Source of the DNA: Planctomycetota bacterium
GTDB taxonomy: Bacteria; Planctomycetota; E44-bin39
Reading direction: 5' to 3'
NCBI GenBank assembly: GCA_004376375.1
Contig: SOJX01000096.1
Coordinates: 20,557 to 84,556 of the forward strand
DNA: 64,000 bases
Shown: in pieces, positions 5,239-49,990 of the stretch
How positions within the stretch are numbered: position 1 is the first letter of the stretch
Layout: every line of letters starts with the position of its first letter
The notes under the pieces: generated by a model
Told to the model about the DNA's origin: nothing
Database searches by the model: none
Seen by the model: only the letters and a program-made list of their open reading frames with translations
Position numbers and translations under genes: made by a program

Positions 5239-5278
5239 AGCCCCGGAATTTCTTTCCGGGGCTTCTGCATTTCATTTT
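5239..5278 (+). terminator. Rho-independent terminator after the 3515..5203 gene
   Basis: agccccgga-atttcttt-ccggggct hairpin followed by a T-rich tail. Confidence 0.45.
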
Positions 5279-5420
5279 CCGTTCGAGCGGCATTCAAAAA
5301 GTAACGTACAGGAACTCTTCCGCCCAGACATCGGAGAGCAGGATAATCAAAGCCGTTATCACAAAAATCAGGAACGAGAGGCCGAAGTCGAGTATAAGCT
5401 CTTTTATCCCGCTTTTCATT

Positions 5421-6569
5421 CTACCGTTTCCTTTTCATGAGAGGCGCTACCTTCCGCGCAAGTTCTTCGGCAACCCGCTCGTTGCCTTTCGGCATCAGAT
5501 GGTCCATATCGATGGTCTCTTCCGAGAGCACGAATTCCAGAAAATCGGTCACATCTTCAACCCCCTCCTCACGCAGTACTGACTTTATTATTTCATGTGC
5601 GTCCCGGATTTTTTCACCTTCATGCCGGGGGTCGCGTTTGATTAACTCCGCGGCATACCTGATAAAGTCGGCGTTGGCGTAGGAGACGTACCAGAACACG
5701 GGAGGTTTCTTCTCCTTCACGAAGCGAACCATTTTCCTGAGGTATTCAATCTGCTCTCTCTCTTCGCTGACATGCATATATTTATCGCTTAGGTACTTCA
5801 TCAAATAGAAAATGTCTCCGATATTGTGGCCGCCCGCATTCTTCCTGTGAATCCAGTTCCGGTGCTTTTTCGTCTCTTTTCCGCCCAGGCGGCCCAGGAA
5901 ATCCCTGCCCGCATCACTGTCAAGCCAGAAACGATACATGTTGCCGGATGCATACAGCCGCCAGCATCTCTTGAGCAGATGTGACGACCGCAGAGGCGCG
6001 CGCCTGAAAAACGACTGCGGCGCGAGCTCATCGAGTCCGGCCTCCCTATGCAGCCGGGTCACTTCAATCGCCACGGCGGGATAAAGCGAAGGCAACCTGG
6101 AAAATAATTCGGTGGCGTTTGAAAACATGCGGTGGCTCAACTGAAGAACAAATAAATCAGCGGAATAATCCGCAAACGCGGTCAGAAGCAGGAGCTTGTC
6201 GGCAGGCCCGCCTGCAACCTCGGAAAGGTTCACGACCTCGACGTTTTCAAGGCCGGGATATTTTCTAAGGGCAGTCTCGAGCTGAGGCGGCAGAATGTAA
6301 CGCGTCCGCATGTTGATTCCCTGGCCGGTGGAATCGCCGAGAAAAAAAACACGGGGATAATCCACGTTCTTGGGAAGGTGGGCAAGGCACCACTCTGTAT
6401 ATGCGGAACTGAAAACGGGGTTTCTGCGAAGCTCTTTCGGAAAGAAGACTCCGGGTGCGGCCCAGAGCAGCACGTCGGCAAGAATAAACCAGAAGAGAAT
6501 AAATAGGGCCAGGCGTATCACTCGGGGGTAGCTGAGTTTGCTTATATATTTTCTTACCGTCAAAATCAT
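5421..6569 (-). CDS. Membrane-anchored putative SGNH/GDSL-type hydrolase
   Basis: ATG at 6569 preceded by GGGAG. N-terminal transmembrane helix. FFLGDSTGQG block (GDS motif) shortly after the anchor. The ORF table extends to 6632 through the upstream repeat. Confidence 0.4.
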   Translation of the reverse strand: MILTVRKYISKLSYPRVIRLALFILFWFILADVLLWAAPGVFFPKELRRNPVFSSAYTEWCLAHLPKNVDYPRVFFLGDSTGQGINMRTRYILPPQLETALRKYPGLENVEVVNLSEVAGGPADKLLLLTAFADYSADLFVLQLSHRMFSNATELFSRLPSLYPAVAIEVTRLHREAGLDELAPQSFFRRAPLRSSHLLKRCWRLYASGNMYRFWLDSDAGRDFLGRLGGKETKKHRNWIHRKNAGGHNIGDIFYLMKYLSDKYMHVSEEREQIEYLRKMVRFVKEKKPPVFWYVSYANADFIRYAAELIKRDPRHEGEKIRDAHEIIKSVLREEGVEDVTDFLEFVLSEETIDMDHLMPKGNERVAEELARKVAPLMKRKR

Positions 6570-13475: not shown

Positions 13476-14870
13476 ATGATTCGCAAACTCCTCCTTTCCG
13501 CATGCATACTTGCGATTGCTCTTGCCTTTTTGCCGCTTGCGCAGGCCAAACTCAGCTCGGCCGAATGGAAGAAAGCCAAGAGCAACCTTGACAAGCTGCT
13601 GAGGGCGGGCGAGGCAGGTAAAGCCCAACTCCCCGACGCGATAAGAAAAGTAGCCGACGACAATTCAGACCGCGCAGTCAAACTGCTGCTCACAGTCGGG
13701 CTGAGGGTTGAAGACTCCGCGGTATATGAAGCGACAAAGTCCGCGCTCTCCTCGATAACGGACCCCAAGGGAATGAAGGCTATCCGCAAGGAGCTCGAGC
13801 GCAAGAGCGACAAGAACTGGCGGATAAAGGTAATACTCGTCGAAGTCGTCGCCCGCATGCTGGGACGCGAGAAAATCAGGATAATATCCGACATCGCCGC
13901 GAACGAGACCAAGCAGGAAGTGCTTCGCGCGGTAATAAGGGCATGCAGAATCATCGACACCAAGGAAGTGATTTCCCCGCTGATCGAGCTGGTGAGGCGT
14001 TTCGAGAAGCTCAAAGGCAGCGTATGGATGGACTCCCGCGACGCGCTGTTCGCCATCACGGGCGGCGAAGATTTCGACTGCGCCGCAGACTGGAAACAGT
14101 GGTGGGACGGCGAGAAGGCAACCTGGAAAAAACCAAGCGAGGAAGATAAGGAAAAAGAAGAATCGGGCGCAAAAGGGGAGTCAGAGGGTTACAGGACGTC
14201 CCCGCGCAAGGCGCCGAGATTTTTCGGCACCGAAGTCACTTCAAAGCTTGTCGTTTTCGTGCTCGATACATCCGGCTCGATGAAGATCAAAGACCCCGGT
14301 GAAAACCCCGAAGATGAAGATGAAAAACCCGACACGCGAACAACCGCGGACCCGAAAAAGAAAAAGCAAAGCGGAGGCGGCGGCAAGGCGGGGAAGCAGA
14401 AACTGCCCGACCACCGGATGAGGGTAAAACGCGCCCAGAAAGAACTTATTAAGTGCATAAAAGCCCTGGATCCCAACGTGGAATTCAACATAGTTACCTA
14501 CGACTCAACCACAACTACATGGAGCAGGTCTGGCCTCAAGGTCGCGAGCGCTGCAAACAAGAAAGACGCTATCAAATACGTCAAGAACTTTCAGCCCAAA
14601 GCCACGACCCACACCGATGACGCCATCATCCGCGCGTTCAAGGAAAACCCGAAGGCCGACACCCTGATTTTGCTCTCCGACGGCTGGCCGACCCACAAAG
14701 GCGATAACAGCGACTGCAAGGAGATTATCGACCGCATCTGGAAGTTTCTGGCAAAAGCCAACAAGTTCCGCCGCGTCAGAATATTCACATTCGGCTTTGT
14801 AGACGCCCACCGCGCATTCATGGTGGAGCTGGCACGCAAGAACGGCGGCAAGTACAAAGATATCAAGTAG
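13476..14870 (+). CDS. Secreted protein with N-terminal HEAT-like repeats and a C-terminal von Willebrand factor A (vWA) domain
   Basis: Signal peptide. VVFVLDTSGSM MIDAS motif (DxSGS). 464 aa. Confidence 0.65.
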   Translation: MIRKLLLSACILAIALAFLPLAQAKLSSAEWKKAKSNLDKLLRAGEAGKAQLPDAIRKVADDNSDRAVKLLLTVGLRVEDSAVYEATKSALSSITDPKGMKAIRKELERKSDKNWRIKVILVEVVARMLGREKIRIISDIAANETKQEVLRAVIRACRIIDTKEVISPLIELVRRFEKLKGSVWMDSRDALFAITGGEDFDCAADWKQWWDGEKATWKKPSEEDKEKEESGAKGESEGYRTSPRKAPRFFGTEVTSKLVVFVLDTSGSMKIKDPGENPEDEDEKPDTRTTADPKKKKQSGGGGKAGKQKLPDHRMRVKRAQKELIKCIKALDPNVEFNIVTYDSTTTTWSRSGLKVASAANKKDAIKYVKNFQPKATTHTDDAIIRAFKENPKADTLILLSDGWPTHKGDNSDCKEIIDRIWKFLAKANKFRRVRIFTFGFVDAHRAFMVELARKNGGKYKDIK

Positions 14871-15014
14871 TTATCGCCCCGGGCCCGAAATGTAACGTTT
14901 ATGTAATACCTTCAAAGGCGGCATTTTTCACTACATTATTCCCCTTTTTAATCGTATAATTCCTAGAGGGAAAAGGTAAATATCTGCCGTATTCGAATAT
15001 CAAGGAGATATAAA

Positions 15015-15746
15015 ATGCGCGTACAAAAAAACCTCCAGTTTCTGCTTGGAGTAGCTATCCTTGCAATGGGCATAGTTCTTCTTATGACCCCATGCGCAAC
15101 AGGGTGAGGCGGCGGTGGAGCCCGGCGTCCGCCGTCGCGGCCGCCAGTAAGCCCGCCTCCAGGAGGAGGAGGACAACCCAGCAGCACACCCGACAGTCAA
15201 TGGCCCGAACCTGACCACGCACCACCGCCATCCACCGACGAAGACAAAAGTGGTGACAAAAGCGACGAAGGCGGTTCGAAAAGCAAAGTAACAAAGAAAC
15301 CCAAGGTGACCATCTTCGACGAGTTCGAAGGACTTGACAGCAAACGCGAAGATAAGCCCGTCATTTTCTTCTTCTACATCGAGGCCACGTCGCAGAAAGA
15401 CCGCAGCAAGCCGGTGCTGAATTCTCAACAGATGGCCAGGATGCTTGCGCACCCGAAAGTTTCCAATCAATTGAGCGAGTTCAGCTGCTACCGGCGCAAT
15501 TACAAAAAGACCAAGAAGGCCATTCGTAAGAAGTACAAGGTCAAGACCGCGCCGATGCTTGTCGTATTCGACGCCACCGGCAAGGTGATCTTCAGGACTA
15601 CGAGCTTCAAGATCAAGCCTGAAAGACTGGTGGCAACGCTCAAGAAGCTGGTCAAGAAATCTGAAAAGAATCTTGAGAAGTTCCAGAAGAAGCGCGAAAA
15701 GGATGAAGAAAAAGCTGCAAAAAAAGCTGAGAAAGAAAACGAATAA
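15015..15746 (+). CDS. Trx-fold paralog 0: signal peptide, in-frame TGA (15105-15107), Gly/Pro linker, thioredoxin-like domain, Lys-rich tail
   Basis: ATG at 15015 after GGAGA. MRVQKNLQFLLGVAILAMGIVLLMTPCATG-[TGA]-GGGGARRPPSRPP... continues in frame into the table ORF 15306..15746. Confidence 0.5.
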
Positions 15747-15772
15747 CAATTTACGACCCGACTGAACTAATG

Positions 15773-15805
15773 CTGAGCCCGGTCAAAGCCGGGCTCAGTT
15801 TCTTT
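15773..15805 (+). terminator. Rho-independent terminator after paralog 0
   Basis: ctgagcccggtcaaagccgggctcag hairpin followed by a T-rich run. Confidence 0.6.
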
Positions 15806-16009
15806 AATTGCCTTTTACATTACACAATCTGATTCTTCCACATAACTTACTGAGGTCAGCATAGATATACGCGCTGCTTCATTCCGTTGCCCCAGGCGTG
15901 AAAAGCCGGACTGGAAAGTCTGTCTATTTATGCCCTAAATGTCCTTTTACCGGCGCAATACAATAACTGTCACGTTTTTGTAATAATTGGATACAAATGT
16001 AATTCAAGC

Positions 16010-16038
16010 TTGTCATAGCAGAATTTCCGGGATATAAT
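16010..16038 (+). promoter_or_regulatory. Sigma70-like promoter of paralog 1 (TTGTCA-17-TATAAT)
   Basis: TTGTCA at 16010-16015, TATAAT at 16033-16038. Conserved TTTTGTAATAA box 24 nt upstream (15976-15986). Confidence 0.5.
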
Positions 16039-16129
16039 AGGAACAGATAAGGGAAGAAAGGTGTAAGGTTATATAGATGGTTTGATCTATGGCTCCGTTC
16101 GCCGAAGAACGGCCATGGAGGGAGGACCA

Positions 16130-17017
16130 ATGCAACGCACACTAGTTTTATTTATCGCGGCCCTGGCCATCACTGTTATGGCCCTGGACCTTCCCGCATA
16201 TTGCTGAGGTGGCGGAGGAGGATCGCGACCGCCGGCGCGGCCGCCAGCAAGACCGCCGACTCCACCTCCGGCACCGCCTCCGCGTCCGCCGAGTACGCCA
16301 CCGCCGAGCACACCGAGACCGCCGAGTACGCCACCGCCGAGCACGCCGACTCCGCCGAGGACGCCGACTCCGCCTCCAAGGCTGTCGACGCCTATTCCGC
16401 CAAGAGCTCCTGTAACGCTCGGCTGGCCGGAAGCGAAGCCGGTAGCGAACCCGACGCCGAAGAACGAGCCGACCATTACCGGCCGCGGCATCTTCGGTAA
16501 AAAGGACGGCAAAGCGGGAAAAGCGGAAAAATCGGCGAACAAGGTTATCGTCAAAAAGAAGGTGAAAATAACCTGCTTCGACGACTTCGACGCGCTGAAG
16601 GGCAAGGAAGAGAACAAGCCGGTCGTCATTTTCGTGTACTGGCCCGACAGGACCGACGACGCCGGCCGCACCTCAAAGCTCTATGCAAACTGCCAGAAGA
16701 TGATTGAAGTCCTTGCCAACGCGGACGTGCAATCCGCGCTGAGACAGTGTCAGTGCTACAAAGTGAATTTCCAGGGGCTTGACAAATCGCGCCGCAAACG
16801 TTACGGCGTGAAATCCGTACCGACGCTGCTCTTCATCGACGCAACCGGCAAGGTTCTCAAGAGACTTACATCACCGCGGATAAAACCCGCGAGCCTGGTT
16901 CGGCTGATACTGACCGTCGTCAAGAAGTCGGACAAGAACATGGAGAAGCTCGAGAAGAAGCGCGAAAGAGCCGCGGAAAAGGCAGCGGAAAAGGCAGCGG
17001 AAAAGGAGCGATCTTAG
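16130..17017 (+). CDS. Trx-fold paralog 1 with in-frame TGA at 16205-16207
   Basis: GGAGGGAGG RBS. MQRTLVLFIAALAITVMALDLPAYC-[TGA]-GGGGGSRPPARPP... No in-frame ATG for 357 nt after the TGA, yet that stretch is conserved at protein level with the other copies. In frame with table ORF 16562..17017. Confidence 0.55.
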
Positions 17018-17065
17018 CGCCGACACTCGGCGGCCTCTGAACAGGCTGCAACTTTACCGGAACCG

Positions 17066-17097
17066 AAAGCCCGGGATTTATCCCGGGCTTTATTTTT
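17066..17097 (+). terminator. Rho-independent terminator after paralog 1
   Basis: aaagcccgggatttatcccgggcttt followed by ATTTTTGG. Confidence 0.65.
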
Positions 17098-17177
17098 GGC
17101 CTCTCCAAGGCCCGAAAATCGCATTATTTGCCTTGTGTAACAGTTTTGTAATAACAGATAATACTGCCCTAACTTAC

Positions 17178-17206
17178 TTGCATCCCGGCCCGCCATGTCT
17201 TAAAAT
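17178..17206 (+). promoter_or_regulatory. Sigma70-like promoter of paralog 2 (TTGCAT-17-TAAAAT)
   Basis: TTGCAT at 17178-17183, TAAAAT at 17201-17206. TTTTGTAATAA box at 17144-17154. Confidence 0.5.
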
Positions 17207-17261
17207 ACAGTGACAGCTAAAAGGTATATTACGAACCAGAGTCCGATAAGAAGGAGAACTT

Positions 17262-18074
17262 ATGAAAAAGCTGCCAATAATATTTATTGCTGCGCTGGCC
17301 ATCACCGTAATGGCCCTGGACCTTCCCGCATACTGCTGAGGCGGCGGAGGAGGATCGCGGCCGCCGGCGCGGCCGCCTGCAAGACCGCCGACACCAAGAC
17401 CGCCATCAAATCCCGGTGGTAACCCGGGTGGCAGTAATCCGGGTGGTGGAGGCACGCCAATGGTACCTACGGGTTCTAAACCGAGTATCAATTGGCCGGA
17501 AGCCAAACCAGTCGCCAACCCGACTCCCAAATCCGAGCCCACGACCACGGGCAGAGGGATTCTCGGGAAAAAAGACGACAAAACTGACGAGAAATCCGGC
17601 TCCAAAGTCATCGTCACCAAGAAGCCGAAAATTACCTGCTTCGACGACTTTGACGCGCTGAAGGGCAAGGAAGAGAACAAGCCAGTTGCCATTTTCGTGT
17701 ACTGGCCGGACCGGACAAACTCAAAAGGCCAGACGTCGAAGGCGTACCAGAACAGTCAGAAGATGATTGACCTCCTTGCCAAGTCTGCGGTTCAGTCGGC
17801 CTTCCGCGAGCTTAACTGCTACAAGGTGAACTACAAGTCGCTCGACAAGTCGCGCCTCAAACGCTACGGCGTGAGAGGCGCGCCGACGCTGCTCTTCATC
17901 GACGCGACCGGCAAGGTTCTCAAGAGAATCACCTCTTCGCGGATCAAGGCTGCAAGTCTTGTGAAACTGATCAAGACCGTTGTCAAGAAATCAGACAAGA
18001 ACCTTAAAAGGCTTCAGAAGAAGCGCGAAAAGGCAGAAGAGAAAAAAGCAAAAGAGGAAGAAGAGAAGAAATAA
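17262..18074 (+). CDS. Trx-fold paralog 2 with in-frame TGA at 17337-17339
   Basis: AAGGAGA RBS. MKKLPIIFIAALAITVMALDLPAYC-[TGA]-GGGGGSRPPARPP... In frame with table ORF 17460..18074. Confidence 0.55.
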
Positions 18075-18112
18075 GAAAACAGCTTCTTCCAGTACAATGG
18101 CAGATTAACTTC

Positions 18113-18146
18113 AAAGCCCGGGACTCGTCCCGGGCTTTTGTTTTTC
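18113..18146 (+). terminator. Rho-independent terminator after paralog 2
   Basis: aaagcccgggactcgtcccgggctttt followed by GTTTTT. Confidence 0.65.
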
Positions 18147-18198
18147 CACAGCAGGTTTATGAAAGACAAGCGGGTACAGTGTTTCCCGAAAGTTAGTT

Positions 18199-19173
18199 CT
18201 ACTGGGAATGAGTCTTGAAGAAATCCCAGATAACGGTGTTGGCGTCCATATCGCGGCAGGTTTTGCCGACCAGCCATTCACCCAGATACTGCCATCCGCC
18301 GGGCCAGGTGTGACCGCCGCCTACCACTTCATAGTAAACGACCTCCGAGCCGCTCAAACCATTGCCGTATACATCCCGCCGCACCAGCGTTCCGTCGTCG
18401 GGGTCCAGGTCGGGCAGCCATGTAACGGTCGGCGCCGGATCGCACACGTTGTTGCTCACCCAGTAATTGACCGTATTTGCCGCCGATATGACGCGCCCCA
18501 TTCCGGTGATGCCGAGGATTACTATATCCCCGCCGCCGAAGGGAACCATCGGATCCTCAACGCCGACCATGATCAGGATGGGAATCGGGCCCATCGGCGT
18601 GAGCAGCGACAGGTTTTCGGTAAGCGAGCCGCAGACCGGGGCGACGGCGGCGAACCTGTCGGACGCTTCAATGCCGAGGCGGTGGGACATGAAGGAACCG
18701 TTGGATATCCCGGTCGCGTACACGCGCTTGCGGTCGATATTATAACTATCGTCGAAGTAATCGATAAGGGTGGAGAGGAAACCCACGTCGTCGACATTAT
18801 AGAGGTGCGAAGCGTAGTCCTCTATGCCGCGCCCGTCGTTCCATTGCTTTTCGTAAGCGTCCGGGTAAACGACGATGAATCCTTCGCTTTCCGAGAGCGT
18901 GTCGAAACCTCCCTGCGTAAGGGCTATCATCCTGTCGCCGTTACCGCCGCCGCCGTGAAGGGCGAAGACCAGCGGCTGTTCATCCGCGTAAGTCCACGAC
19001 GCGGGAACATGGTACTCGAAAGTCCGCGTCAGGCCTATGTGCTGTATCGAATCCTTGTGGTCTCCGGGGCCGATAGAAGGGCCGGCCGGAGGGAAGAAAA
19101 GGTTGCTTTTCTTTTTCCTGCAGGCGGGTACAAGAAGCGCGAAAAAAAGGAGCGTGAAAGTCATATAACGCAT
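18199..19173 (-). CDS. Lipoprotein esterase of the PHB-depolymerase/LpqC-like alpha/beta-hydrolase family
   Basis: Signal with lipobox LLVPACRKK. FALHGGGGNG and GISNG (GxSxG nucleophile elbow) motifs. 324 aa. Confidence 0.5.
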   Translation of the reverse strand: MRYMTFTLLFFALLVPACRKKKSNLFFPPAGPSIGPGDHKDSIQHIGLTRTFEYHVPASWTYADEQPLVFALHGGGGNGDRMIALTQGGFDTLSESEGFIVVYPDAYEKQWNDGRGIEDYASHLYNVDDVGFLSTLIDYFDDSYNIDRKRVYATGISNGSFMSHRLGIEASDRFAAVAPVCGSLTENLSLLTPMGPIPILIMVGVEDPMVPFGGGDIVILGITGMGRVISAANTVNYWVSNNVCDPAPTVTWLPDLDPDDGTLVRRDVYGNGLSGSEVVYYEVVGGGHTWPGGWQYLGEWLVGKTCRDMDANTVIWDFFKTHSQ

Positions 19174-19283
19174 TTTTTATCCTCTGGCCTTGGATATAAT
19201 TCAATCATCAGGCGAGGCACGTCATCGCTTTAATATATCATACAACACCGCATTAAACAAGGTTGCAGAATCTTCAACCCCGT

Positions 19284-20276
19284 TTACGGCGAATCCGTCA
19301 CGTCCGCTTTGCGCACGTCCGTTCCGTCGCTCCAGGTGCCGAGGTGGCGCTGCTTACCGGTGCCATCGAGCCCGTAAGCGCGGTTCCTCCCTTTTACGGC
19401 GAAATCGGAGAGCGCGTCGAACCACTTCCAGAATCCGTACCAGTCCAACGCGTCCGGTCTGAAAAACGACCCCGCCAGAGGCGCAAAGTGGCCCGCGACC
19501 AGAGGCGGTTCTCCGTGCTCGTCGGTATGGACTGTAATGAAATCCTTGTTTTCGAGACTAACCTGCGTCGCTCCGAAAAATATTTTTTTTGCAATCCGAT
19601 TCCCGACCATCCTGTCGTCCGCGCCGACAACCAGGAGCATCAGCGTGTCGGACGGGATGCGCGCGTAATCCTCGAGCGAAGATACCGGACCTCCCGGCTC
19701 GACGCACATCATGGCCCGGATTTTCGGGAGGTTCTCTCTCTCGGCGAGGGCGGCGATGTTCGCGGTCAGAACCCCGCCCATCGAATGCCCCAGCGCGCAG
19801 ACATTGTCGAGCTGTGGCGATACATGGCCTGCTTTTTTGAGTTTGGCAATTGCCGATTTTATCGCGCTTATCGCGTTCGGCGTAAAGTGTCTGGCACGCG
19901 TGAAAATCGAATTCTGGTAACGCGGGTAGATTACAACAGACCCCCGCCGCACGATGTGCTTTATCCATTCAAGGTAAGACCTCGGATTCATCGCACCCCA
20001 GCCGTGATTGAAGATTACGACGGGCGCGCTTTTCGGCTTCGGGTCCGCGGGCTCGAACAGCCAGTACCGCGTCCCTCCCGTGCCGTGGTGACTTTTCGTT
20101 ACGGACCCGTGCGCATACTCGGACGACCCGGGCCCGCTTTTCGGCTGCACCGGAGGAGTAATATCGCCGGTGTAAATGCCAGCCGGTTTATCTGCGAACT
20201 TGCAGCCGCTCCCGACCACCGCCGCGAAGAGCAGGACGACGAAGATGCCGGGTTTGAGTGGTAGAAATGTTTTCAT
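19284..20276 (-). CDS. Lipoprotein alpha/beta-hydrolase (lipase/esterase-like)
   Basis: Signal with lipobox VVGSGCKF. GHSMGG nucleophile motif. 330 aa. Confidence 0.5.
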   Translation of the reverse strand: MKTFLPLKPGIFVVLLFAAVVGSGCKFADKPAGIYTGDITPPVQPKSGPGSSEYAHGSVTKSHHGTGGTRYWLFEPADPKPKSAPVVIFNHGWGAMNPRSYLEWIKHIVRRGSVVIYPRYQNSIFTRARHFTPNAISAIKSAIAKLKKAGHVSPQLDNVCALGHSMGGVLTANIAALAERENLPKIRAMMCVEPGGPVSSLEDYARIPSDTLMLLVVGADDRMVGNRIAKKIFFGATQVSLENKDFITVHTDEHGEPPLVAGHFAPLAGSFFRPDALDWYGFWKWFDALSDFAVKGRNRAYGLDGTGKQRHLGTWSDGTDVRKADVTDSP

Positions 20277-20309
20277 TTATTAAGGCACCTTTGAGAATGC
20301 ATGCGAAGT

Positions 20310-21401
20310 TCAATAGCGCAGCAGGGCTGCGATATTGCCGACTTCGGTCAGGCCCGGAATCGGGTCGACGAAGTCCGCTTCCGCACCGGATGATGCGAGC
20401 AACTCGATTATCTCGTTGACAAGGTCGATTTTAAAAATTGACTGCGAGCCGCATTTGGAACAGGCCGCATGCGCTCCCTCGTCCAGATGATCGCAGTCGC
20501 GGCAGCGGATGCCGTCTATCCGAACATCGCGGCTGACGACAACCTTGCTGACCCGCCCCGCTTTCGCCGCGTCGAGCACGTCCGCGGCGCCGACGGTTGC
20601 CTTGCCTTTACGACAGTATTCGTTCCTGATCCGCTCCCAGAGCCTTTCTTCGGAGCGGCGTTCCTCGTCGAAGTACAGGTCGAATATTTCCCGGTTGATA
20701 CAATGCTCGCCTTCGGACAGGTTCATGGCCTTTTCGCCGACAAGTTTCCTGGCGAGATGGGCCGGAAGCACCCGCTTGATTTCAGCCAGCGTTTCCCTCG
20801 ACCCGGCCATAAGGATGCGGCGGAAGCTCTCGCTCCGGTCCAGTTCCTTAAGCCTGTCGACGATATCCTTGGCGTAATGATGAAGCTGTTTGTCGCGCCT
20901 GCGCTCGTAGCGCTGCTGCGACCAGCCGCCTTTCCGCACGTGGTTTTTTATATTCCCCCTGACTCGCTCCTCGGACTCGGCCTTCGCGGACACGACCAGA
21001 TAAATGCGGGCGGATTTATTGTCGGCGACGACCACCGCGAAATTCTCGTATTCGTCCTGCAGTTCGGCCAGCGGACGGATATAGGGCGAGGAATCAACGA
21101 TTAATAAATCGGGCATATCTACTTCAATCGGAAAGGCCTTGAAATAATCCAGCGCCCAGCAGGCGAAAATGCATATCCCGCCGGACTCGACCGGATTCTT
21201 CTTCAGGTATTTTTCCACAAGCTCGATGTTCTCATCGAAGTATTCCGCTTCGTCCCTGTTATCCCGTAAAAGAGAGCGCGTGTTCCCGATGCGCTTCCCC
21301 AGCGATTCCAGCGCTCCGGCATCGGAAAGGTAGAGGCTCAGAAACGCGCGGTCCGGCGCCGTTACTTTCGCCAATTCGCGCAGGTTGATTTTGTCGAACA
21401 T
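20310..21401 (-). CDS. Hypothetical protein, tentatively eRF1/Pelota-like (bacterial aeRF1-type), with a C-terminal C4 zinc ribbon
   Basis: 363 aa. Central KGGWSQQRYERRRD loop reminiscent of the eRF1/Dom34 central-domain loop. C-terminal CRDCDH...CSKCGS zinc ribbon. Assignment is by motif impression only. Confidence 0.3.
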   Translation of the reverse strand: MFDKINLRELAKVTAPDRAFLSLYLSDAGALESLGKRIGNTRSLLRDNRDEAEYFDENIELVEKYLKKNPVESGGICIFACWALDYFKAFPIEVDMPDLLIVDSSPYIRPLAELQDEYENFAVVVADNKSARIYLVVSAKAESEERVRGNIKNHVRKGGWSQQRYERRRDKQLHHYAKDIVDRLKELDRSESFRRILMAGSRETLAEIKRVLPAHLARKLVGEKAMNLSEGEHCINREIFDLYFDEERRSEERLWERIRNEYCRKGKATVGAADVLDAAKAGRVSKVVVSRDVRIDGIRCRDCDHLDEGAHAACSKCGSQSIFKIDLVNEIIELLASSGAEADFVDPIPGLTEVGNIAALLRY

Positions 21402-21464
21402 GATATGACCGGCCTCCTATTGCTCTGTTACGCCTGATGTGATAAGTAGGCCGTCAATGCGAGG

Positions 21465-21590
21465 AGCGAAGCGACGTAGCAATCTCAGACTAGGTTACAG
21501 GTTACAGGTTACAGGTATCAGAATATATTTTTTACCTGTTACCTGTCACCTGTTACCTGATTTGTCGGCAGCTTTGCTACCTCCTCGCAA
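21465..21590. repeat. Nested intergenic palindrome built on GGTTACA heptad repeats
   Basis: Inner arms CAGGTTACAGGTTACAGGTA / TACCTGTTACCTGTCACCTGTTACCTG. Outer arms ttgcgaggag...gtagcaa / ttgctacctcctcgcaa. Confidence 0.7.
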
Positions 21591-21634
21591 TGACCTGTAC
21601 ATATCATTTGAGGTGTAACGGAGTACTAGTTATC

Positions 21635-22219
21635 TTATCTCCTCAGTTCTTTCCATGTCTTTCCGCCGTTGGCGCGGATGAAATCTGCAATCGCTTCGTG
21701 CCGCAATAACTGCGCCCAGTCAAGGGGCGCACATCCGAATTCGTCTTTTGTATTGATGTCGGCCTTCATTCTTACCAGCGACTCAACAAGGTCCTTGTTT
21801 TTTTCCCGTATCGCCCAGAACAGCGGCGTCCAGTCGTCTTCATCTCTCGCGTCTATTTCCGCGCCTTTGTCGATCAGCAGCATCGCAACGTCATTCCATT
21901 TATTCCTTGCGGCCAGGTGCAGGGGGAAGCTCTTAAACATGCTCTTTGGCACCAGGGTGTTGACATGTTCCCAGTGTTCTGCCAGGAATTCCGCTGCCTT
22001 CTCGCCGCCTTCCAGTTCCCCCGCCAGCACATCGAAGCCTTTCCTGCCTTTGCCGAGCAGCCAGCTGACGGATTTCACCCTCTCTTTCGCGTCATTGGAA
22101 TGCAGACAGGAGGCGTTCCACAATATTCTCACCGGCGTCCACAGCAGGCAGGTCGCTATCACGGCCGCGAAAAGCAGGACGACGAAGATAGTGAGCTTGA
22201 GAGGCAGCGAAAGCTTCAT
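21635..22219 (-). CDS. Ankyrin-repeat protein with N-terminal signal/anchor
   Basis: Three or four ankyrin repeats (LHLAARNKWNDVAMLLIDKGAEIDARDEDDWTPLFWAIREKNKDLVESLV...). The N-terminal 19 aa are nearly identical to those of the 19284..20276 gene. Confidence 0.65.
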   Translation of the reverse strand: MKLSLPLKLTIFVVLLFAAVIATCLLWTPVRILWNASCLHSNDAKERVKSVSWLLGKGRKGFDVLAGELEGGEKAAEFLAEHWEHVNTLVPKSMFKSFPLHLAARNKWNDVAMLLIDKGAEIDARDEDDWTPLFWAIREKNKDLVESLVRMKADINTKDEFGCAPLDWAQLLRHEAIADFIRANGGKTWKELRR

Positions 22220-22309
22220 TTATTCTCTTTTGTCTCTTTTTCGGATTTCTTTTCAGGTTCTGGAACAGGGAGAGTAATTTCCGTGATTTCCTCGACCTTG
22301 AGTGAATCC

Positions 22310-23410
22310 TTAATCGGTATAATGAGCAGGCGCGGTTTTTTTTCCCGTAAGCTGAAGGACAAACCTGCTTCGGTCGCCGGATGAATTGTATAATTCAAAG
22401 CGGTCACCCGGTTTGCTTGGTATGTCCAGAATCACTTTTCGGCCTTTTTCAGTGTGGACGGCGAGAACGATCTCACTGGGCACTTTATCTTCCCTGTCCG
22501 CTTCTTTTTCTGAATCCTCATCATCGCTTTTCGGCTCGGGGATATTCTTCAGCTCTATTGCGTATATCCTGTCTTTAATCATTACAGGCGGCCCCAGAAT
22601 ATTTTTTGAATGACCAATCCAGAGGAGTTTGCCCGTTGAAAGGTCAAATACGCCGAGTTCGCTTATGCGGTCGAGCTTGTATGATATATTATGACTGCCG
22701 TATCTGACGCCGAGAACAATCTTTTTGTGGTCGCTGGAGACTCTTGTGAATATCATCATCTGATCTTTCACTTTAATAATCTTGTCGAGTTCCGGTTTGC
22801 CGATTGTCACCATTTTTTTGGCGCCGGGTGAATAGACTTCGATTTTCTGGAAAGCCCAGCCGAGCAGTTTTTTCGACTCGTCTTCGGGATCTTCAGTTAT
22901 AATACGGAGAAAACAGCCGTCGCCCGCGTTCCATGCATGATAATCCAGAGTGGTTATAATATTCGAAAGGTTATCAAGGGAGTAGACTGTTGTTTTCCAT
23001 TTTTCTTCTTCTTCCTTGCAAGGGACGTAAAGCGCGTTCCCGCCGTCGAAGGTTCCTGTAAAAATGAAAAGCTCGCTGGCTTTTATGGATGTTTCCGTGC
23101 ATTCTCCGGTTGCAGGATTCACCAGCCAGTAAGGACCATCGTCGTTGCTGTTTACCTTCTCGCTGCCTATCAACAGATTACTTTTAATCCATCTAAGGCC
23201 TTTCGGCTCCCACCCTTCGGGAAGTTTCAGGTCTGTAACCTTTTTCGTCGCAAGCTCGACGACGTAAATTCTATTAAGGCCTTCCAAGACCATCACGTGA
23301 ACGGCCACGTACTTGCCGTCGGGCGAGAACTTGGGCAGGACGTCATATATGCATCCTGCAACCCATAAAAATATAAAGACAATAATTAGAAATCTGGTAA
23401 CCCTCAGCAT
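22310..23410 (-). CDS. Lipoprotein with TolB-like/WD40-like beta-propeller repeats
   Basis: N-terminal transmembrane/signal with WVAGC. Repeated PDGKYVA-type blades. The table ORF extends to 23452. Confidence 0.45.
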   Translation of the reverse strand: MLRVTRFLIIVFIFLWVAGCIYDVLPKFSPDGKYVAVHVMVLEGLNRIYVVELATKKVTDLKLPEGWEPKGLRWIKSNLLIGSEKVNSNDDGPYWLVNPATGECTETSIKASELFIFTGTFDGGNALYVPCKEEEEKWKTTVYSLDNLSNIITTLDYHAWNAGDGCFLRIITEDPEDESKKLLGWAFQKIEVYSPGAKKMVTIGKPELDKIIKVKDQMMIFTRVSSDHKKIVLGVRYGSHNISYKLDRISELGVFDLSTGKLLWIGHSKNILGPPVMIKDRIYAIELKNIPEPKSDDEDSEKEADREDKVPSEIVLAVHTEKGRKVILDIPSKPGDRFELYNSSGDRSRFVLQLTGKKTAPAHYTD

Positions 23411-23653
23411 TAATTGATCTCCATTTTGCTGAATACCGAACCACCTGACCACCGTATTCTATCCCGCATTAGAAAAGAATGCAACCAATAGCAGAAAAGC
23501 GATGCCTCAAGAACAGGCAAGATGAACAAAAAGCAGGTAAACAAAGCGAAAAACCGGCAAAAATGCATCATTTCGGACATCTGCATCACCAAATCTGCTC
23601 TATTTGGCTTATGTAAAGGTTTTGTAATAATAGACAGGCGTGTCCTAATATAC

Positions 23654-23683
23654 TTGAAATGATTATCCGCGCTCAATATAATA
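23654..23683 (+). promoter_or_regulatory. Sigma70-like promoter of paralog 3 (TTGAAA-18-TATAAT)
   Basis: TTGAAA at 23654-23659, TATAAT at 23678-23683. TTTTGTAATAA box at 23620-23630. Confidence 0.5.
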
Positions 23684-23725
23684 GGTTTGAGGCTGGAACG
23701 GACCGCTCGCTGAAAGGAATTGAAA

Positions 23726-24523
23726 ATGCAAAAACTGCTTACCACATTCCTGCTCGCTATGTGTGCAGTCGGATTTGCCTTGGACAATGTGGCCTATGCT
23801 GCCGGCGGCTGTTGAGGCGGCGGTGGCACTCCGCGGCCGCCGGCGCGGCCACCTACGACTCCAAGACCGCCTGCAGGAAATCCCGGGAACCCCGGTACTC
23901 CCAGTACGGGAACTCCCATTCAGCCTCGTACGCCCGCAGAACTCAGCTGGCCTGAGGCCAAACCCGTTGCCGAATCGACCCCTGAAGTTGAGCCCACAAC
24001 TACGGGCAAGGGAATTCTCGGTAAAAAGGACGACAAGGGCAAAACGGCTGAAGGGGAAAAATCCGGCAACAAGGTCGTCGTTAAAAAGCGAGAAAAACCC
24101 ACCTGCTTCGACGACTTCGACGCGCTGAAAGGGAAGGAAGAAAATAAACCTGTCCTCCTTTTCGTGTACTGGCCTGACATGAAGGATTCCAAAGGCCGCA
24201 CTTCGAAGGCCTACGAGAACTGCCGGAAGATGATTGAACTCCTTGCCAGGTCGTCGGTCCAGTCAGCCCTCGAAAAGATAGACTGTTACAAAGTCAACTA
24301 CAAGTCGCTCGACAAGGCGCGCCTCAAACGCTACGGCGTGAAAGGCACGCCGACGCTGATTTTCATCGACGCGACCGGCAAGGTGCTCAAGAGGATCACG
24401 TCTCCGCGGATAAAGCCGTCAAACCTTATCCGGTTGATTAAGACCATCGTCAAGAAATCGGACAGGAACCTGGAGAAGCTTCAGAAGAAGCGCGAGAAGG
24501 AAGAGGAAAAGCAGTCCAAGTAA
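23726..24523 (+). CDS. Trx-fold paralog 3 with in-frame TGA at 23813-23815
   Basis: MQKLLTTFLLAMCAVGFALDNVAYAAGGC-[TGA]-GGGGTPRPPARPP... In frame with table ORF 24164..24523. Confidence 0.55.
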
Positions 24524-24578
24524 GGCGATAAAGGCGAGTTTGCAGCCATAACAGACTACCAATAAAAGGGAGATTCCA

Positions 24579-25397
24579 ATGCGAAAACTGCTTATCCCGT
24601 TTGTACTCGCCTTATGCATAGTCGGATTTGCAGTAGATGATGTGACGCATGCATGCGACACCTGCGGCTGCGGTAAAAAAGGGCCTTGCGGTCCGAGCGG
24701 TGGCGGTGGCGGTGGTTGCTGAGGCAGCGGCGGCACTTCGAAGCCGCCGGTAGCTGGGCCTACCGGTAAAAACTCTCAGCCCGACAAGCCCATTGGCATC
24801 CCGTGGCCGGATGCAAAACCGGCATCTGAAGAAACGGTCACCGGCAAAGAAATCCTCAAGAAGAAAGACGACAAGGCCGCGGCCGGCAAAACCGATACCG
24901 GCAAAAACGCGGCAGAAAAGGGCGGAACCGACCCGAAAAAGGCGACCTGTTTCAACGACTTCGACGCGCTCAAAGGCAAGGAGTTGAAAAAGCCGATCCT
25001 TCTCTATTTCTACTGGCCCGAGGACAAGGCTTCGAAAAGCCGGGCGCAATACCGCGATTGTCAGAAGATGAACAAACTGCTTTTCGAGGACCCGGACGTC
25101 AAGGATGAACTTTCCAAACTCGATTGCTACAAGGTTAACCTGTCCATACTGAGTAAAGAGCTCAAGAAACAGTACAAGATTAAGAGCGCGCCGACGCTGA
25201 TCTTCATCGACCCGACCGGAAAGGTGCTCAAGAAAAGCTCTTCAACCAGGACAAAACCTTCGAGAATGGTCCGCCTGATAAAGTCGGTCGTCAAAGCCTC
25301 CGCCCGCAACCTGAAGCGGTACAAGAAAAAACTGGCGCAGGAAGAGAAAAAGGAAAAACCGCAGGCAAAGGAGGAAGACGAAGCCAAGGCCAAATGA
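24579..25397 (+). CDS. Trx-fold paralog 4 with in-frame TGA at 24720-24722; extra Cys cluster before the TGA; probably co-transcribed with paralog 3
   Basis: GGGAGA RBS. ...HACDTCGCGKKGPCGPSGGGGGGC-[TGA]-GSGG... In frame with table ORF 24984..25397. No separate promoter in the 55-nt gap after paralog 3. This copy ends with TGA. Confidence 0.5.
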
Positions 25398-49036: not shown

Positions 49037-49990
49037 TTATCGATTCTCGAACTTTGTGCCGGCGTGGAATTCCTCGAGGTATACCTCGGCGCCTCGCGCG
49101 GCCGTGGCGCCCTCCCCGACGGCAACTGCAATCTGCTTGAACAGGTTGGCGCGGATGTCGCCGCAGACGAAAAGTCCGCGCGTCTTTGTTTCCATCGACT
49201 TACCTGTACGGATAAAACCGAGCCTGTTCCTGGCCACCGGAACCTTGATGAAATCCGTCTTCGCGAGAAAACCGACGAAGATAAAGCAGCCTTCGACGTC
49301 CAGGCTTCCGGCTTCTTCCGTCTTGACATTCTTCAGCGCTACGGACTTCAACAGGTCCTCGCCGCAAAATTCCGTTACAACTGTATCCCAGTGTACTTTT
49401 ATTTTATCGTTTTTTGCAGCCCTCGCGGCAAGGCCCGGGTCCGCCCGGAGCTTGTCGCGCCTGTGGATAATGTGAACCGCATCGGCGAAACGCGTAAGAA
49501 ACAGGGCCTCCTCGACGGCGGAGTCGCCGCCCCCGACAACGGCAACCTGCCTGCCGCGGTAAAGCGGGCCGTCGCACGTCGCGCAGTACGAAATACCCTT
49601 GCCGGAGTACCTGTCGTGGCCGGGCACATTGTACTGCCTGCGCTCGACGCCGGTGGCGACAATCACCGATTTTGCATCGAGTTTTTCGGAATCAGTCTCG
49701 ACCATGAACTCGCACTCGTCCTGTTTTTCAATCGAACTCACGGCCGCGGTCTTTATCTCGGCGCCGAACCGCCTGGCCTGCTCCGCCATCGCGCTTGAAA
49801 GCTCCATTCCCGTTACAGGCTTTGGGAACCCCGGATAGTTCTCAATCTCGAAAGTCTCGTTCATCATACCGCCGGGAAGCCCTTTCTCGAGAACAACCGT
49901 CGTGAGCTCCGAGCGTGAGGCATATATGGCGGCCGTCAGGCCCGCAGGCCCGCCGCCGACGATTACGACATCGTAACAGGACGCGTCCAT
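49037..49990 (-). CDS. trxB: Thioredoxin-disulfide reductase
   Basis: VVIVGGGPAGLTAAIY FAD motif. CATCDG redox-active disulfide. Second GGGDSA NADPH motif. 317 aa. Confidence 0.85.
   Translation of the reverse strand: MDASCYDVVIVGGGPAGLTAAIYASRSELTTVVLEKGLPGGMMNETFEIENYPGFPKPVTGMELSSAMAEQARRFGAEIKTAAVSSIEKQDECEFMVETDSEKLDAKSVIVATGVERRQYNVPGHDRYSGKGISYCATCDGPLYRGRQVAVVGGGDSAVEEALFLTRFADAVHIIHRRDKLRADPGLAARAAKNDKIKVHWDTVVTEFCGEDLLKSVALKNVKTEEAGSLDVEGCFIFVGFLAKTDFIKVPVARNRLGFIRTGKSMETKTRGLFVCGDIRANLFKQIAVAVGEGATAARGAEVYLEEFHAGTKFENR

What the first reader, a model, noticed from the sequence alone, without database searches (positions are those of the whole stretch)
15015..25397. Five paralogous secreted Trx-fold genes each carry a conserved in-frame UGA just after the signal peptide: candidate undescribed selenoprotein family or programmed UGA recoding
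The start codons are at 15015, 16130, 17262, 23726 and 24579. Each is followed by a 25-47 aa signal-peptide-like segment and then TGA, at 15105, 16205, 17337, 23813 and 24720. In all five copies the downstream conserved domain is in the same frame. The offsets to the table ORFs are 291, 432, 198, 438 and 405 nt, all multiples of 3. The peptide right after the TGA is conserved, as GGGG(G)(S/A/T)RPP(A/S)RPP. In copy 1 there is no in-frame ATG for 357 nt after the TGA. That stretch still aligns with copies 2 and 3 (WPEAKPVANPTPK...TTGRGI(L/F)GKKDDK) with mostly third-position synonymous differences. This means it is translated and under purifying selection. The TGA sits in a C-U-G context in copies 1-2 (YC*G) and G-C-U-G in copies 3-4. 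The latter is the TrxR-type Cys-Sec dyad; copy 0 lacks the adjacent Cys (TG*G). Other genes in the window end in TAA, TAG or TGA (parA 38879, M48 peptidase 43203, copy 4 itself at 25395), so this is local recoding rather than a genome-wide code change. Five copies argue against pseudogenes.
Basis: partly seen in the sequence, partly recalled or inferred. Interest (0 to 1): 0.93.

Follow-up and report, generated by a model that had tools for sequence, protein, structure and literature searches.

The report
Probable new secreted selenoprotein family
Five neighbouring genes for exported thioredoxin-like proteins each have a conserved in-frame UGA right where the signal peptide ends; 22 relatives elsewhere have it too. 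This is most likely an undescribed selenoprotein family with selenocysteine at or near the first residue of the mature protein.

Summary
All five genes have a Shine-Dalgarno site, an ATG, a 25-47 aa signal peptide, TGA, a Gly/Pro-rich linker and a thioredoxin-fold domain without CXXC, all in one frame.

I found the same TGA at the same place in 22 more genes. That makes 27 genes on 14 contigs, in three clades that are 25-30% identical, from organisms of 33-57% GC.

- **Same-frame coding:** substitutions on both sides of the TGA fall mostly on third codon positions.
- **Not a code change:** TGA is an ordinary stop in these genomes, and six or seven of the 27 genes end in TGA themselves.
- **Cys form:** one paralog in the same genome has Cys at this position, an uninterrupted reading frame and no downstream hairpin.
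- **RNA signal:** 17 of 27 sites meet all four published bacterial SECIS constraints, against about 11% of control positions. Synonymous sites are unusually conserved in the first 14 codons after the TGA.
- **Not catalogued:** no Pfam or NCBIfam family, and none of the 119 selenoprotein families in a 2026 review, matches.

The main gap is that selA, selB, selD and tRNA-Sec could not be looked for in these genomes. The RNA structure evidence is suggestive rather than conclusive.

Verdict: a probable new selenoprotein family with an unusual layout. The biochemical function is unknown.

The parts
15015..15746 (+). Copy 0: signal peptide (15015-15104), TGA (15105-15107), Gly/Pro linker, Trx-like domain (about 15303-15695), stop TAA
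   Evidence: The ortholog L002b in another MAG keeps the TGA.
16130..17017 (+). Copy 1: signal peptide (16130-16204), TGA (16205-16207), long Pro-rich linker, Trx-like domain (about 16571-16951), stop TAG
17262..18074 (+). Copy 2: signal peptide (17262-17336), TGA (17337-17339), linker, WPEAKPVA motif, Trx-like domain (about 17628-18032), stop TAA
   Evidence: AlphaFold2 model with pLDDT 85.9. Fold matches the DsbD C-terminal domain and thioredoxins.
23726..24523 (+). Copy 3: signal peptide (23726-23812), TGA (23813-23815) in a GGC-U-GGGG context, Trx-like domain (about 24095-24472), stop TAA
24579..25397 (+). Copy 4: signal peptide plus a Cys-rich insert (24579-24719), TGA (24720-24722), Trx-like domain (about 24939-25331). 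The gene's own stop codon is TGA.
15124..15145 (+). Candidate SECIS hairpin of copy 0: GGCGUCCGCCGUCGCGGCCGCC, 4-nt loop CGUC, 25 nt after the UGA, -13.2 kcal/mol
16225..16244 (+). Candidate SECIS hairpin of copy 1: loop CGGC, 25 nt after the UGA, -9.9 kcal/mol
17357..17376 (+). Candidate SECIS hairpin of copy 2: GCGGCCGC-CGGC-GCGGCCGC, 8-bp stem, 25 nt after the UGA, -17.1 kcal/mol
23835..23850 (+). Candidate SECIS hairpin of copy 3: 6-bp stem, loop CGGC, 25 nt after the UGA, -11.3 kcal/mol
24746..24767 (+). Candidate SECIS hairpin of copy 4: different sequence (GCCGGUAG..CUACCGGU), 7-bp stem, 30 nt after the UGA, -9.5 kcal/mol
13476..14870 (+). Upstream neighbour: secreted protein with HEAT-like repeats and a vWA domain. 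It is syntenic with the family in a second MAG (L002).

Best explanation
These genes encode a previously uncatalogued family of exported selenoproteins.

Proposed mechanism:
1. Translation starts at the ATG in front of a Sec-type signal peptide.
2. The UGA immediately after the signal peptide is read as selenocysteine by SelB and tRNA-Sec. A hairpin 15-30 nt downstream, formed by the Gly/Arg/Pro-coding stretch, directs this.
3. Translation continues through a flexible Gly/Pro-rich tether into a DsbD-gamma-like thioredoxin fold that has lost its CXXC.
4. Signal peptidase I cuts at the A-x-(G/A/C) site directly before the Sec. The selenol then sits at or within a few residues of the mature N-terminus, usually next to a Cys (CU, CxU, Ux4C).
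5. This N-terminal arm acts as a tethered redox-active or metal/metalloid-binding arm in the cell envelope.

Shown here: the conserved same-frame UGA, the Cys paralog, the thioredoxin fold, the absence of CXXC, and the enrichment of hairpins.

Inferred, not shown: Sec insertion itself, the signal-peptidase cleavage site, and the biochemical role.
For: - The UGA sits at the homologous position in 27 of 27 genes read at DNA level. These lie on 14 contigs, in 3 clades that are 25-30% identical, at 33-57% GC.
- Third-position substitutions dominate on both sides of the UGA. Shine-Dalgarno sites lie before the signal-peptide ATGs. In copy 1 there is no in-frame start codon for 357 nt after the TGA.
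- TGA is a normal stop: 6 of 26 window genes. Six of the 27 family genes end in TGA; a seventh, L015a, is cut short by a second in-frame TGA of unknown meaning. The low-GC contigs also use TGA as a stop.
- A Cys paralog in the same MAG (L004...TAG-C-RRPPRPPC) has an uninterrupted reading frame, no Gly run, and no hairpin that fits the SECIS geometry.
- 19 of 27 genes have a Cys within 5-6 residues of the U. This is typical of selenenylsulfide or metal-binding motifs.
- Published bSECIS constraints (PMC13188914, Fig 2 legend) are all met at 16 of 22 plus 1 of 5 sites. Control rates are 11-13% in the window and 1.5-4% in the low-GC loci. A stricter test, a hairpin with a G[G/U] loop, is met at 16 of 27 sites against 9.7% of random positions.
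- At conserved residues with four or more codons, codon identity is 0.58-0.60 in the first 14 codons after the UGA. It is 0.32-0.46 elsewhere in the gene, in both clades tested.
- Residue -3 is Ala in 18 of 27 genes and residue -1 is G, A or C in 26 of 27. This fits signal peptidase I cleavage directly before the U.
- The domain is a confident thioredoxin fold (pLDDT 85.9). The best Foldseek matches are the DsbD C-terminal domain and thioredoxins.
Against: - No selA, selB, selD or tRNA-Sec was found in the 232 kb I could read. The rest of these genomes could not be searched.
- RNAalifold finds no consensus structure across the family.
- The stem nearest the UGA has only one covarying pair, which amounts to a single event between clades.
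- Synonymous-codon shuffles fold as stably as the real sequences (mean z +0.39). Much of the folding therefore follows automatically from Gly/Pro/Arg codons.
- Ten of 27 sites fail the full SECIS model.
- Only one close Cys homolog was found. This Sec:Cys ratio is unusually skewed.
- Eight genes, including the whole low-GC clade, have no Cys near the U.
- Rfam gives no SECIS hit.
Confidence: 0.8

Rival explanations
1. Programmed low-level UGA readthrough by a near-cognate tRNA (Trp, Cys or Arg), possibly stimulated by the downstream GC-rich structure. Here the UGA works as an expression throttle or an export-coupled pause rather than coding for Sec.
For: - The Sec machinery is unverified.
- The folding energy is explained by the amino-acid composition alone.
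- No consensus RNA structure was found.
- Eight of 27 genes lack a nearby Cys.
- Cys forms are almost absent.
Against: - UGA is kept in 27 of 27 genes. UGG, UGC and CGA are never seen at this position. The apparent Trp forms in protein databases turned out to be TGA translated with code 4 by gene callers.
- The single sense-codon variant has Cys (L004).
- A Cys lies close by in 19 of 27 genes.
- Hairpins with G[G/U] loops at SECIS-like spacing are about six-fold enriched.
- From general knowledge, not tested here: no comparable conserved readthrough system is known for cellular bacterial genes.
Confidence: 0.1
2. Translation really stops at the TGA. The short upstream ORFs are separate leader peptides or leftovers, and the Trx domain is made from a downstream start or is a pseudogene.
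For: Gene callers annotate the genes this way: downstream starts for P0001, P0006 and P0007, and a 29-aa leader ORF in L012.
Against: - The stretch between the TGA and the first possible start is 40-116 codons long. It evolves mainly by third-position and synonymous changes in the same frame.
- The frame across the TGA is preserved in all 27 genes despite many insertions and deletions in the linker.
- Without the upstream part, an obviously envelope-type protein would lack its signal peptide.
- Shine-Dalgarno sites precede the upstream ATGs.
- The Cys paralog is one continuous ORF.
Confidence: 0.03
3. Genome-wide or contig-wide reassignment of UGA (genetic code 4, Trp, or code 25, Gly).
For: - Some sources translated the low-GC relatives with TGA as Trp (P0075, P0184-P0186, P0092).
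- Gly would extend the Gly run that follows the TGA.
Against: - TGA ends 6 of 26 confident window genes and at least six of the family genes themselves.
- In the contig that was called with code 4 (L017), only this site and one TGA six codons before a called gene end are 'in-frame' across 19 genes.
- No other read-through candidates exist in the window.
Confidence: 0.01

Closest known systems
Thioredoxin-fold bacterial selenoproteins, e.g. [quoted passage not shown]
   Same: Exported or redox-type thioredoxin fold, Sec encoded by UGA with a hairpin just downstream, and gene calls truncated at the UGA.
   Different: In those families Sec replaces a Cys of the CXXC at the start of helix 1. Here the fold has no CXXC at all (YWPDR or FYWPxED occupies that place). 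The Sec lies about 100 residues upstream, outside the domain, at the signal-peptide boundary.
C-terminal GCUG arm of animal thioredoxin reductase
   Same: A Cys-Sec dyad flanked by Gly on a flexible tail that could carry redox equivalents. Copies 3 and 4 literally read GCUG.
   Different: The arm is N-terminal rather than C-terminal. There is no flavoprotein domain. Most family members have CxU, Cx2-3U, Ux4C or no Cys. The resemblance is one of working principle only.
CU-motif exported selenoproteins SaoB and SaoC, and the N-terminal extension of HgcA (Haft & Gwadz preprint, 10.1101/2022.07.06.499078)
   Same: Sec next to Cys in extracytoplasmic or terminal segments, systematic mis-annotation as truncated proteins, and a proposed role in binding soft metals.
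   Different: No sequence relationship: the NCBIfam models do not hit. The folds and gene neighbourhoods differ. Here the Sec sits at the signal-peptidase site.
C-terminal domain of DsbD (cDsbD) and DsbH
   Same: Best structural matches (Foldseek E about 1e-6, target TM 0.55-0.64). These are periplasmic thioredoxin folds.
   Different: The CXXC is missing. A long C-terminal Lys/Glu-rich helix and an N-terminal tether are added. There is no membrane domain.
Glycine reductase selenoprotein A (GrdA)
   Same: A selenoprotein family that essentially lacks Cys-containing homologs. This point rests on general knowledge, not on a tool result here.
   Different: Unrelated fold, cytoplasmic location and a known enzyme complex.

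Membership tests
Bacterial selenoprotein (UGA/bSECIS/SelB recoding) | In-frame UGA conserved at the homologous position among homologs | tested here: met
   27 of 27 genes on 14 contigs, in 3 clades
Bacterial selenoprotein (UGA/bSECIS/SelB recoding) | Protein-coding conservation in the same frame on both sides of the UGA | tested here: met
   Third-position and synonymous changes dominate upstream and downstream. The frame is kept despite linker insertions and deletions.
Bacterial selenoprotein (UGA/bSECIS/SelB recoding) | Cys-containing homologs aligned with the Sec | tested here: met
   One close paralog, L004/P0003 (AG-C-RRPP), in the same MAG. More distant members have Cys clusters after the signal peptide (P0040, P0014). 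The support is thin: 1 close Cys form against 27 UGA forms.
Bacterial selenoprotein (UGA/bSECIS/SelB recoding) | [quoted passage not shown] | tested here: inconclusive
   17 of 27 sites meet all constraints, against about 11% of controls. Synonymous-site conservation is raised after the UGA. However, there is no alignment-wide consensus structure, and the folding energy is explained by amino-acid composition.
Bacterial selenoprotein (UGA/bSECIS/SelB recoding) | selA, selB, selD and tRNA-Sec present in the same genome | not testable with these tools
   None found in the 232 kb held. The other contigs of these MAGs cannot be fetched.
Bacterial selenoprotein (UGA/bSECIS/SelB recoding) | UGA otherwise functions as a stop codon in the organism | tested here: met
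Thioredoxin-family thiol:disulfide oxidoreductase (Pfam Thioredoxin_2, DsbD-gamma-like) | Thioredoxin fold | tested here: met
   AF2 pLDDT 85.9. Foldseek hits to 2fwf, 1vrs and thioredoxins.
Thioredoxin-family thiol:disulfide oxidoreductase (Pfam Thioredoxin_2, DsbD-gamma-like) | CXXC (or UXXC) active site after the first core strand | tested here: not met
   That position reads YWPDR, YIEAT or FYWPxED.
Thioredoxin-family thiol:disulfide oxidoreductase (Pfam Thioredoxin_2, DsbD-gamma-like) | Score above the curated family cut-off | tested here: not met
   Best PF13098 score is 24.1 bits against a cut-off of 27. All NCBIfam hits are far below their cut-offs.
Bacterial lipoprotein (Lgt/LspA lipobox with Sec in place of the +1 Cys) | Lipobox [LVI][ASTVI][GAS]-C directly after the hydrophobic core, with no charged residues in the c-region | tested here: not met
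   A polar or charged c-region (PSDAKG, MADA, QARA, SEAG) precedes the U. Position -3 is Ala rather than Leu. Only the Cys paralog L004 fits a loose lipobox. This was pattern inspection only.
Alternative genetic code (table 4 or 25) | TGA frequent inside conserved genes and never used as a stop | tested here: not met

The most novel reading that the evidence does not exclude
Signal-peptidase cleavage exposes selenocysteine as the very first residue of a secreted protein. An N-terminal selenol next to a free amine, on a long flexible tether, would be a kind of reactive protein end not described before. It could serve covalent capture, ligation, or soft-metal/metalloid trapping in the cell envelope.

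The family also seems to depend on Sec almost completely (27 UGA forms to 1 Cys form) and is amplified to six Sec paralogs in one genome. In this reading, the slow Sec-decoding step at the end of the signal peptide could also couple selenium supply to export.
Probability: 0.3. Interest if true: 0.85.

Novelty: new variant of a known kind. Interest (0 to 1): 0.7.

Why it matters
If confirmed, this adds a selenoprotein family that standard pipelines miss for two reasons. Searches based on Sec/Cys pairs find almost no Cys homologs. And because the UGA lies only 25-47 codons from the start, gene callers simply choose a downstream start, or translate the TGA as Trp.

It would also place selenocysteine outside a catalytic CXXC, at the N-terminus of an exported protein. 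That opens a testable question about what a tethered selenol does in the envelope of Planctomycetota and of other uncultured bacteria.

Finally, it would reveal unrecognised selenium dependence in these lineages. One genome alone carries six Sec paralogs.

Tried and rejected
- **Trp homologs.** Five database proteins show Trp exactly at the UGA position. For a while this favoured a readthrough model. For the forms whose DNA I could read (P0075 and P0184, plus close relatives of P0092 and P0186), the codon is TGA, translated by gene callers with code 4; P0185 could not be read.
- **Code change.** Rejected on stop-codon usage and on the lack of other in-frame TGAs.
- **Lipoprotein with Sec at +1.** Rejected because of the polar c-regions.
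- **Selection on synonymous codons for a more stable fold.** Not supported: mean z +0.39.
- **One alignment-wide consensus hairpin.** RNAalifold finds none. The stem next to the UGA has a single covarying pair.
- **Rfam.** No SECIS or other relevant hit at gathering or E-value thresholds.
- **Sec machinery.** No tRNA-Sec and no SelD-like sequence in the window or the 19 loci.
- **GTDB representative genomes.** The scan returned only unrelated CXXC thioredoxins.
- **AFDB Foldseek library.** Unavailable.
- **Release-factor-like gene inside the cluster.** It is not conserved with the family in any other locus, so I treat it as coincidence.


Full report
**1. What is in the window**

- Met and a Lys/Arg-rich start
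- a hydrophobic core and a short polar segment
- one in-frame TGA (15105, 16205, 17337, 23813, 24720)
- a Gly run and an Arg/Pro-rich linker
- a conserved WPEAKPVA motif and a Lys-rich spacer
- a domain of about 130 residues, then a Lys/Glu-rich tail

The offsets to the mechanically listed ORFs are 291, 432, 198, 438 and 405 nt, as stated. Each upstream ATG has a good Shine-Dalgarno site. The only correction is that copy 4 does not carry the GGGGxRPPxRPP motif.

**2. TGA is not reassigned**

Of 26 confident genes in the window, 6 end in TGA. These include parA, the M48 peptidase and copy 4 itself. A scan for other ORF pairs joined by a single TGA with coding potential on both sides found nothing convincing beyond this family.

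**3. Relatives elsewhere**

A word-indexed search of 5.8 billion proteins found only a handful of close relatives, all from Planctomycetota MAGs and nearly all N-terminally truncated. Reading their DNA showed the cause:
- L001 reads AYC-TGA-GGGGG.
- The syntenic locus L002, from another MAG, has three copies, all with TGA.
- L003, on another contig of the window's MAG, has TGA.
- L004, a seventh paralog in that same MAG, is an uninterrupted ORF with Cys at this position (...TPATAG-C-RRPPRPPCG).

Metagenome scans, an exhaustive HMMER search (205 representatives at E below 1e-3) and two profile searches added two further clades that are only 25-30% identical in the domain.

Every member whose DNA I could read has TGA at the same place: L009A-C, L010, L011a/b, L012, L013, L014a/b, L015a/b, L016a/b, L017 and L020a/b. 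The total is 27 genes on 14 contigs, from organisms of 33-57% GC.

Six of these genes end in TGA, and a seventh (L015a) is cut short by a second in-frame TGA. The low-GC contigs also use TGA as a stop.

**4. A false lead**

Five database proteins show Trp exactly at this position. That would have favoured near-cognate readthrough.

The look-up flagged that these genes do not translate to the deposited protein. In the DNA I could read (P0075 and P0184, plus close relatives of P0092 and P0186), the codon is TGA. The sources had used genetic code 4. In the contig concerned, only this site and one other TGA, six codons before a called gene end, are 'in-frame' among 19 genes. The organism is therefore not recoded.

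**5. Both flanks are translated in one frame**

In ortholog and paralog pairs, differences at codon positions 1/2/3 are:
- c2 against L001: 4/1/11 in the signal peptide, and 4/1/14 between the TGA and the first possible downstream start
- c0 against L002b: 9/11/31 between the TGA and the first downstream start, but 17/8/19 in the signal peptide, where the third-position excess is weak
- c3 against L002c: 26/20/70 between the TGA and the first downstream start

This is the same pattern as in the rest of each gene. The frame is kept despite many insertions and deletions in the linker.

**6. RNA evidence**

GC-rich hairpins follow every UGA. I applied the four published constraints of the bacterial SECIS model (PMC13188914, Fig 2 legend):
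- 16 of the first 22 sites and 1 of the 5 low-GC sites meet all four constraints.
- Among controls, 12.7% of random window positions pass, as do 11.1% of all TGA trinucleotides and 10.3% of positions in the Gly/Arg/Pro-rich region of a non-Sec relative.
- In the low-GC loci, 1.5-4% of random positions pass.

A stricter test asks for an uninterrupted stem of at least 5 bp with a G[G/U] loop, 15-30 nt from the UGA. It is met at 16 of 27 sites against 9.7% of random positions.

The hairpin sequences differ between clades:
- GCGGCCGC-CGGC-GCGGCCGC
- GCCUA-GGCC-UAGGC
- GGGUUG-UUC..-CAACCU
- UGGAACU-GGA-GGUUCCA

The Cys paralog has no hairpin with this geometry.

At conserved residues with four or more codons, codon identity is 0.58-0.60 in the first 14 codons after the UGA. 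It is 0.32-0.35 in codons 14-60 and 0.38-0.46 in the rest of the gene, in both clades tested.

Against this:
- Synonymous-codon shuffles fold just as stably (mean z +0.39).
- RNAalifold finds no family-wide consensus.
- The stem next to the UGA has a single covarying pair.
- Rfam has no hit.

I rate the RNA evidence as supportive but not conclusive.

**7. The protein**

Pfam gives only sub-threshold Thioredoxin_2 hits: at most 24.1 bits against a cut-off of 27. NCBIfam, which includes the curated selenoprotein models, gives nothing near threshold for either the part after the UGA or the full length.

An AlphaFold2 model of the copy 2 domain is confident (pLDDT 85.9). The WPEAKPVA segment is also predicted with high confidence. 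Foldseek places the domain with the DsbD C-terminal domain, DsbH and thioredoxins.

The canonical CXXC is absent. A Cys in the third strand is nearly invariant (CYKVN, or HCxKC in the second clade).

Across the 27 genes:
- residue -3 before the U is Ala in 18
- residue -1 is Gly, Ala or Cys in 26
- the residue after the U is Gly in 24

This fits signal peptidase I cleavage directly before the Sec. That is an inference from the pattern; no predictor was run.

Nineteen of the 27 genes have a Cys within 5-6 residues of the U (CU, CGU, CAGU, CxxxU, UGPxGC). Two of the second-clade members that lack a nearby Cys (L009C, L014b) carry Cys/Gly-rich C-terminal tails; several other relatives do too (P0157, P0167, P0169), but the third, L012, does not.

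**8. Gene context**

- In the window and in L002, the family follows a secreted HEAT/vWA protein.
- In the second clade a conserved gene string surrounds it: a HEAT-repeat protein, a long non-Sec paralog, a 164-aa protein, one or two Sec paralogs, a 272-aa protein ending in ...IMF (probably an outer-membrane barrel), a 250-aa membrane protein, a 332-aa Trx-like/TPR protein, a methyltransferase and a HAMP kinase.
- This points to a role in the cell envelope but does not identify the chemistry.

**9. Comparison with what is known**

The 2026 inventory of 119 prokaryotic selenoprotein families has thioredoxin-fold families with UxxC. It has none with Sec at the signal-peptide boundary of a CXXC-less fold. 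The deep-Sep, BSepDB and Haft papers do not mention one either.

The closest working analogies are:
- the flexible GCUG arm of animal thioredoxin reductase
- the exported CU-motif proteins of the SAO and HgcA systems

Membership in those families, or in the thiol:disulfide oxidoreductases, is not supported.

**10. Verdict**

This is most likely a new selenoprotein family with an unusual layout (confidence about 0.8).

The decisive missing piece is whether selA, selB, selD and tRNA-Sec are present in these genomes. I could not test that: only 232 kb were accessible, and they contain none of these genes. The biochemical role, a tethered redox or metal-binding selenol, is inference.

Noticed in passing
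window 20310-21401 (-): A 363-aa protein of the bacterial eRF1-like release factor family 10 (PF18854, E 1.2e-23; eRF1_2, E 7.8e-9) lies between UGA-gene copies 2 and 3. This is striking next to five recoded stop codons. It is absent from the syntenic locus L002 and from every other family locus, so it is probably coincidence.
   Followed up: partly
L017/L018/L019 6001-6648 and 984-1631; proteins P0075, P0184-P0186, P0092: Public protein collections hold these family members with Trp at the UGA position, because the gene callers used genetic code 4. The DNA has TGA, and the contig is not otherwise recoded.
   Followed up: yes
L015 4684-4686: One second-clade copy (L015a) has a second in-frame TGA inside the Trx-like domain, followed by an Asp/Lys-repeat insert (PIEGDGGSVDKDKDKDKDKD). 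It could be a second Sec, a pseudogene or an assembly problem.
   Followed up: no
window 21489-21561: A long, near-perfect palindromic hairpin lies in the gap between the release-factor-like gene and the ankyrin gene. It scores weakly against miRNA-precursor models on both strands. It is probably a bidirectional terminator or a repeat element.
   Followed up: no
L011 11508-14063; also L009, L010, L013, L014, L015: A conserved gene string lies downstream of the second-clade Sec genes: a 272-aa protein ending in ...IMF (outer-membrane-barrel-like), a 250-aa multi-pass membrane protein, and a 332-aa protein with another CXXC-less Trx-like domain plus TPR. A UbiE-like methyltransferase and a HAMP histidine kinase follow in L011, L014 and L015; the three-gene string is complete in L011, L013, L014 and L015 and only partly captured in L009 and L010.
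   Followed up: partly
L009 about 5240-5330 (copy C); L014 about 6080-6140 (copy b); proteins P0157, P0167, P0169, P0176, P0178: Some family members carry Cys/Gly-rich C-terminal tails (e.g. HDCGCAAGGCTPGGGAAPGGG). The two whose DNA I read (L009C, L014b) lack a Cys next to the Sec, so the tails may supply the partner thiol.
   Followed up: no
window 15000-15749 (-), 16087-16671 (-), 17174-17692 (-); L002 3127-3453 (-): Long spurious ORFs run on the opposite strand across the Gly/Pro-coding linkers. One of them was called as a gene in a public annotation (L002).
   Followed up: partly
window 60422-61249 (-) and 49037-49990 (-): An FdhD/NarQ-family gene (formate dehydrogenase maturation) and a thioredoxin-reductase-like flavoprotein are present. 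FdhD hints that the genome encodes a formate dehydrogenase, the most common bacterial selenoprotein, but no such gene lies in the window.
   Followed up: no
window 21635-22219 (-); L003 7612-8991 (-): Ankyrin-repeat proteins lie near family members on two different contigs of the same MAG.
   Followed up: no
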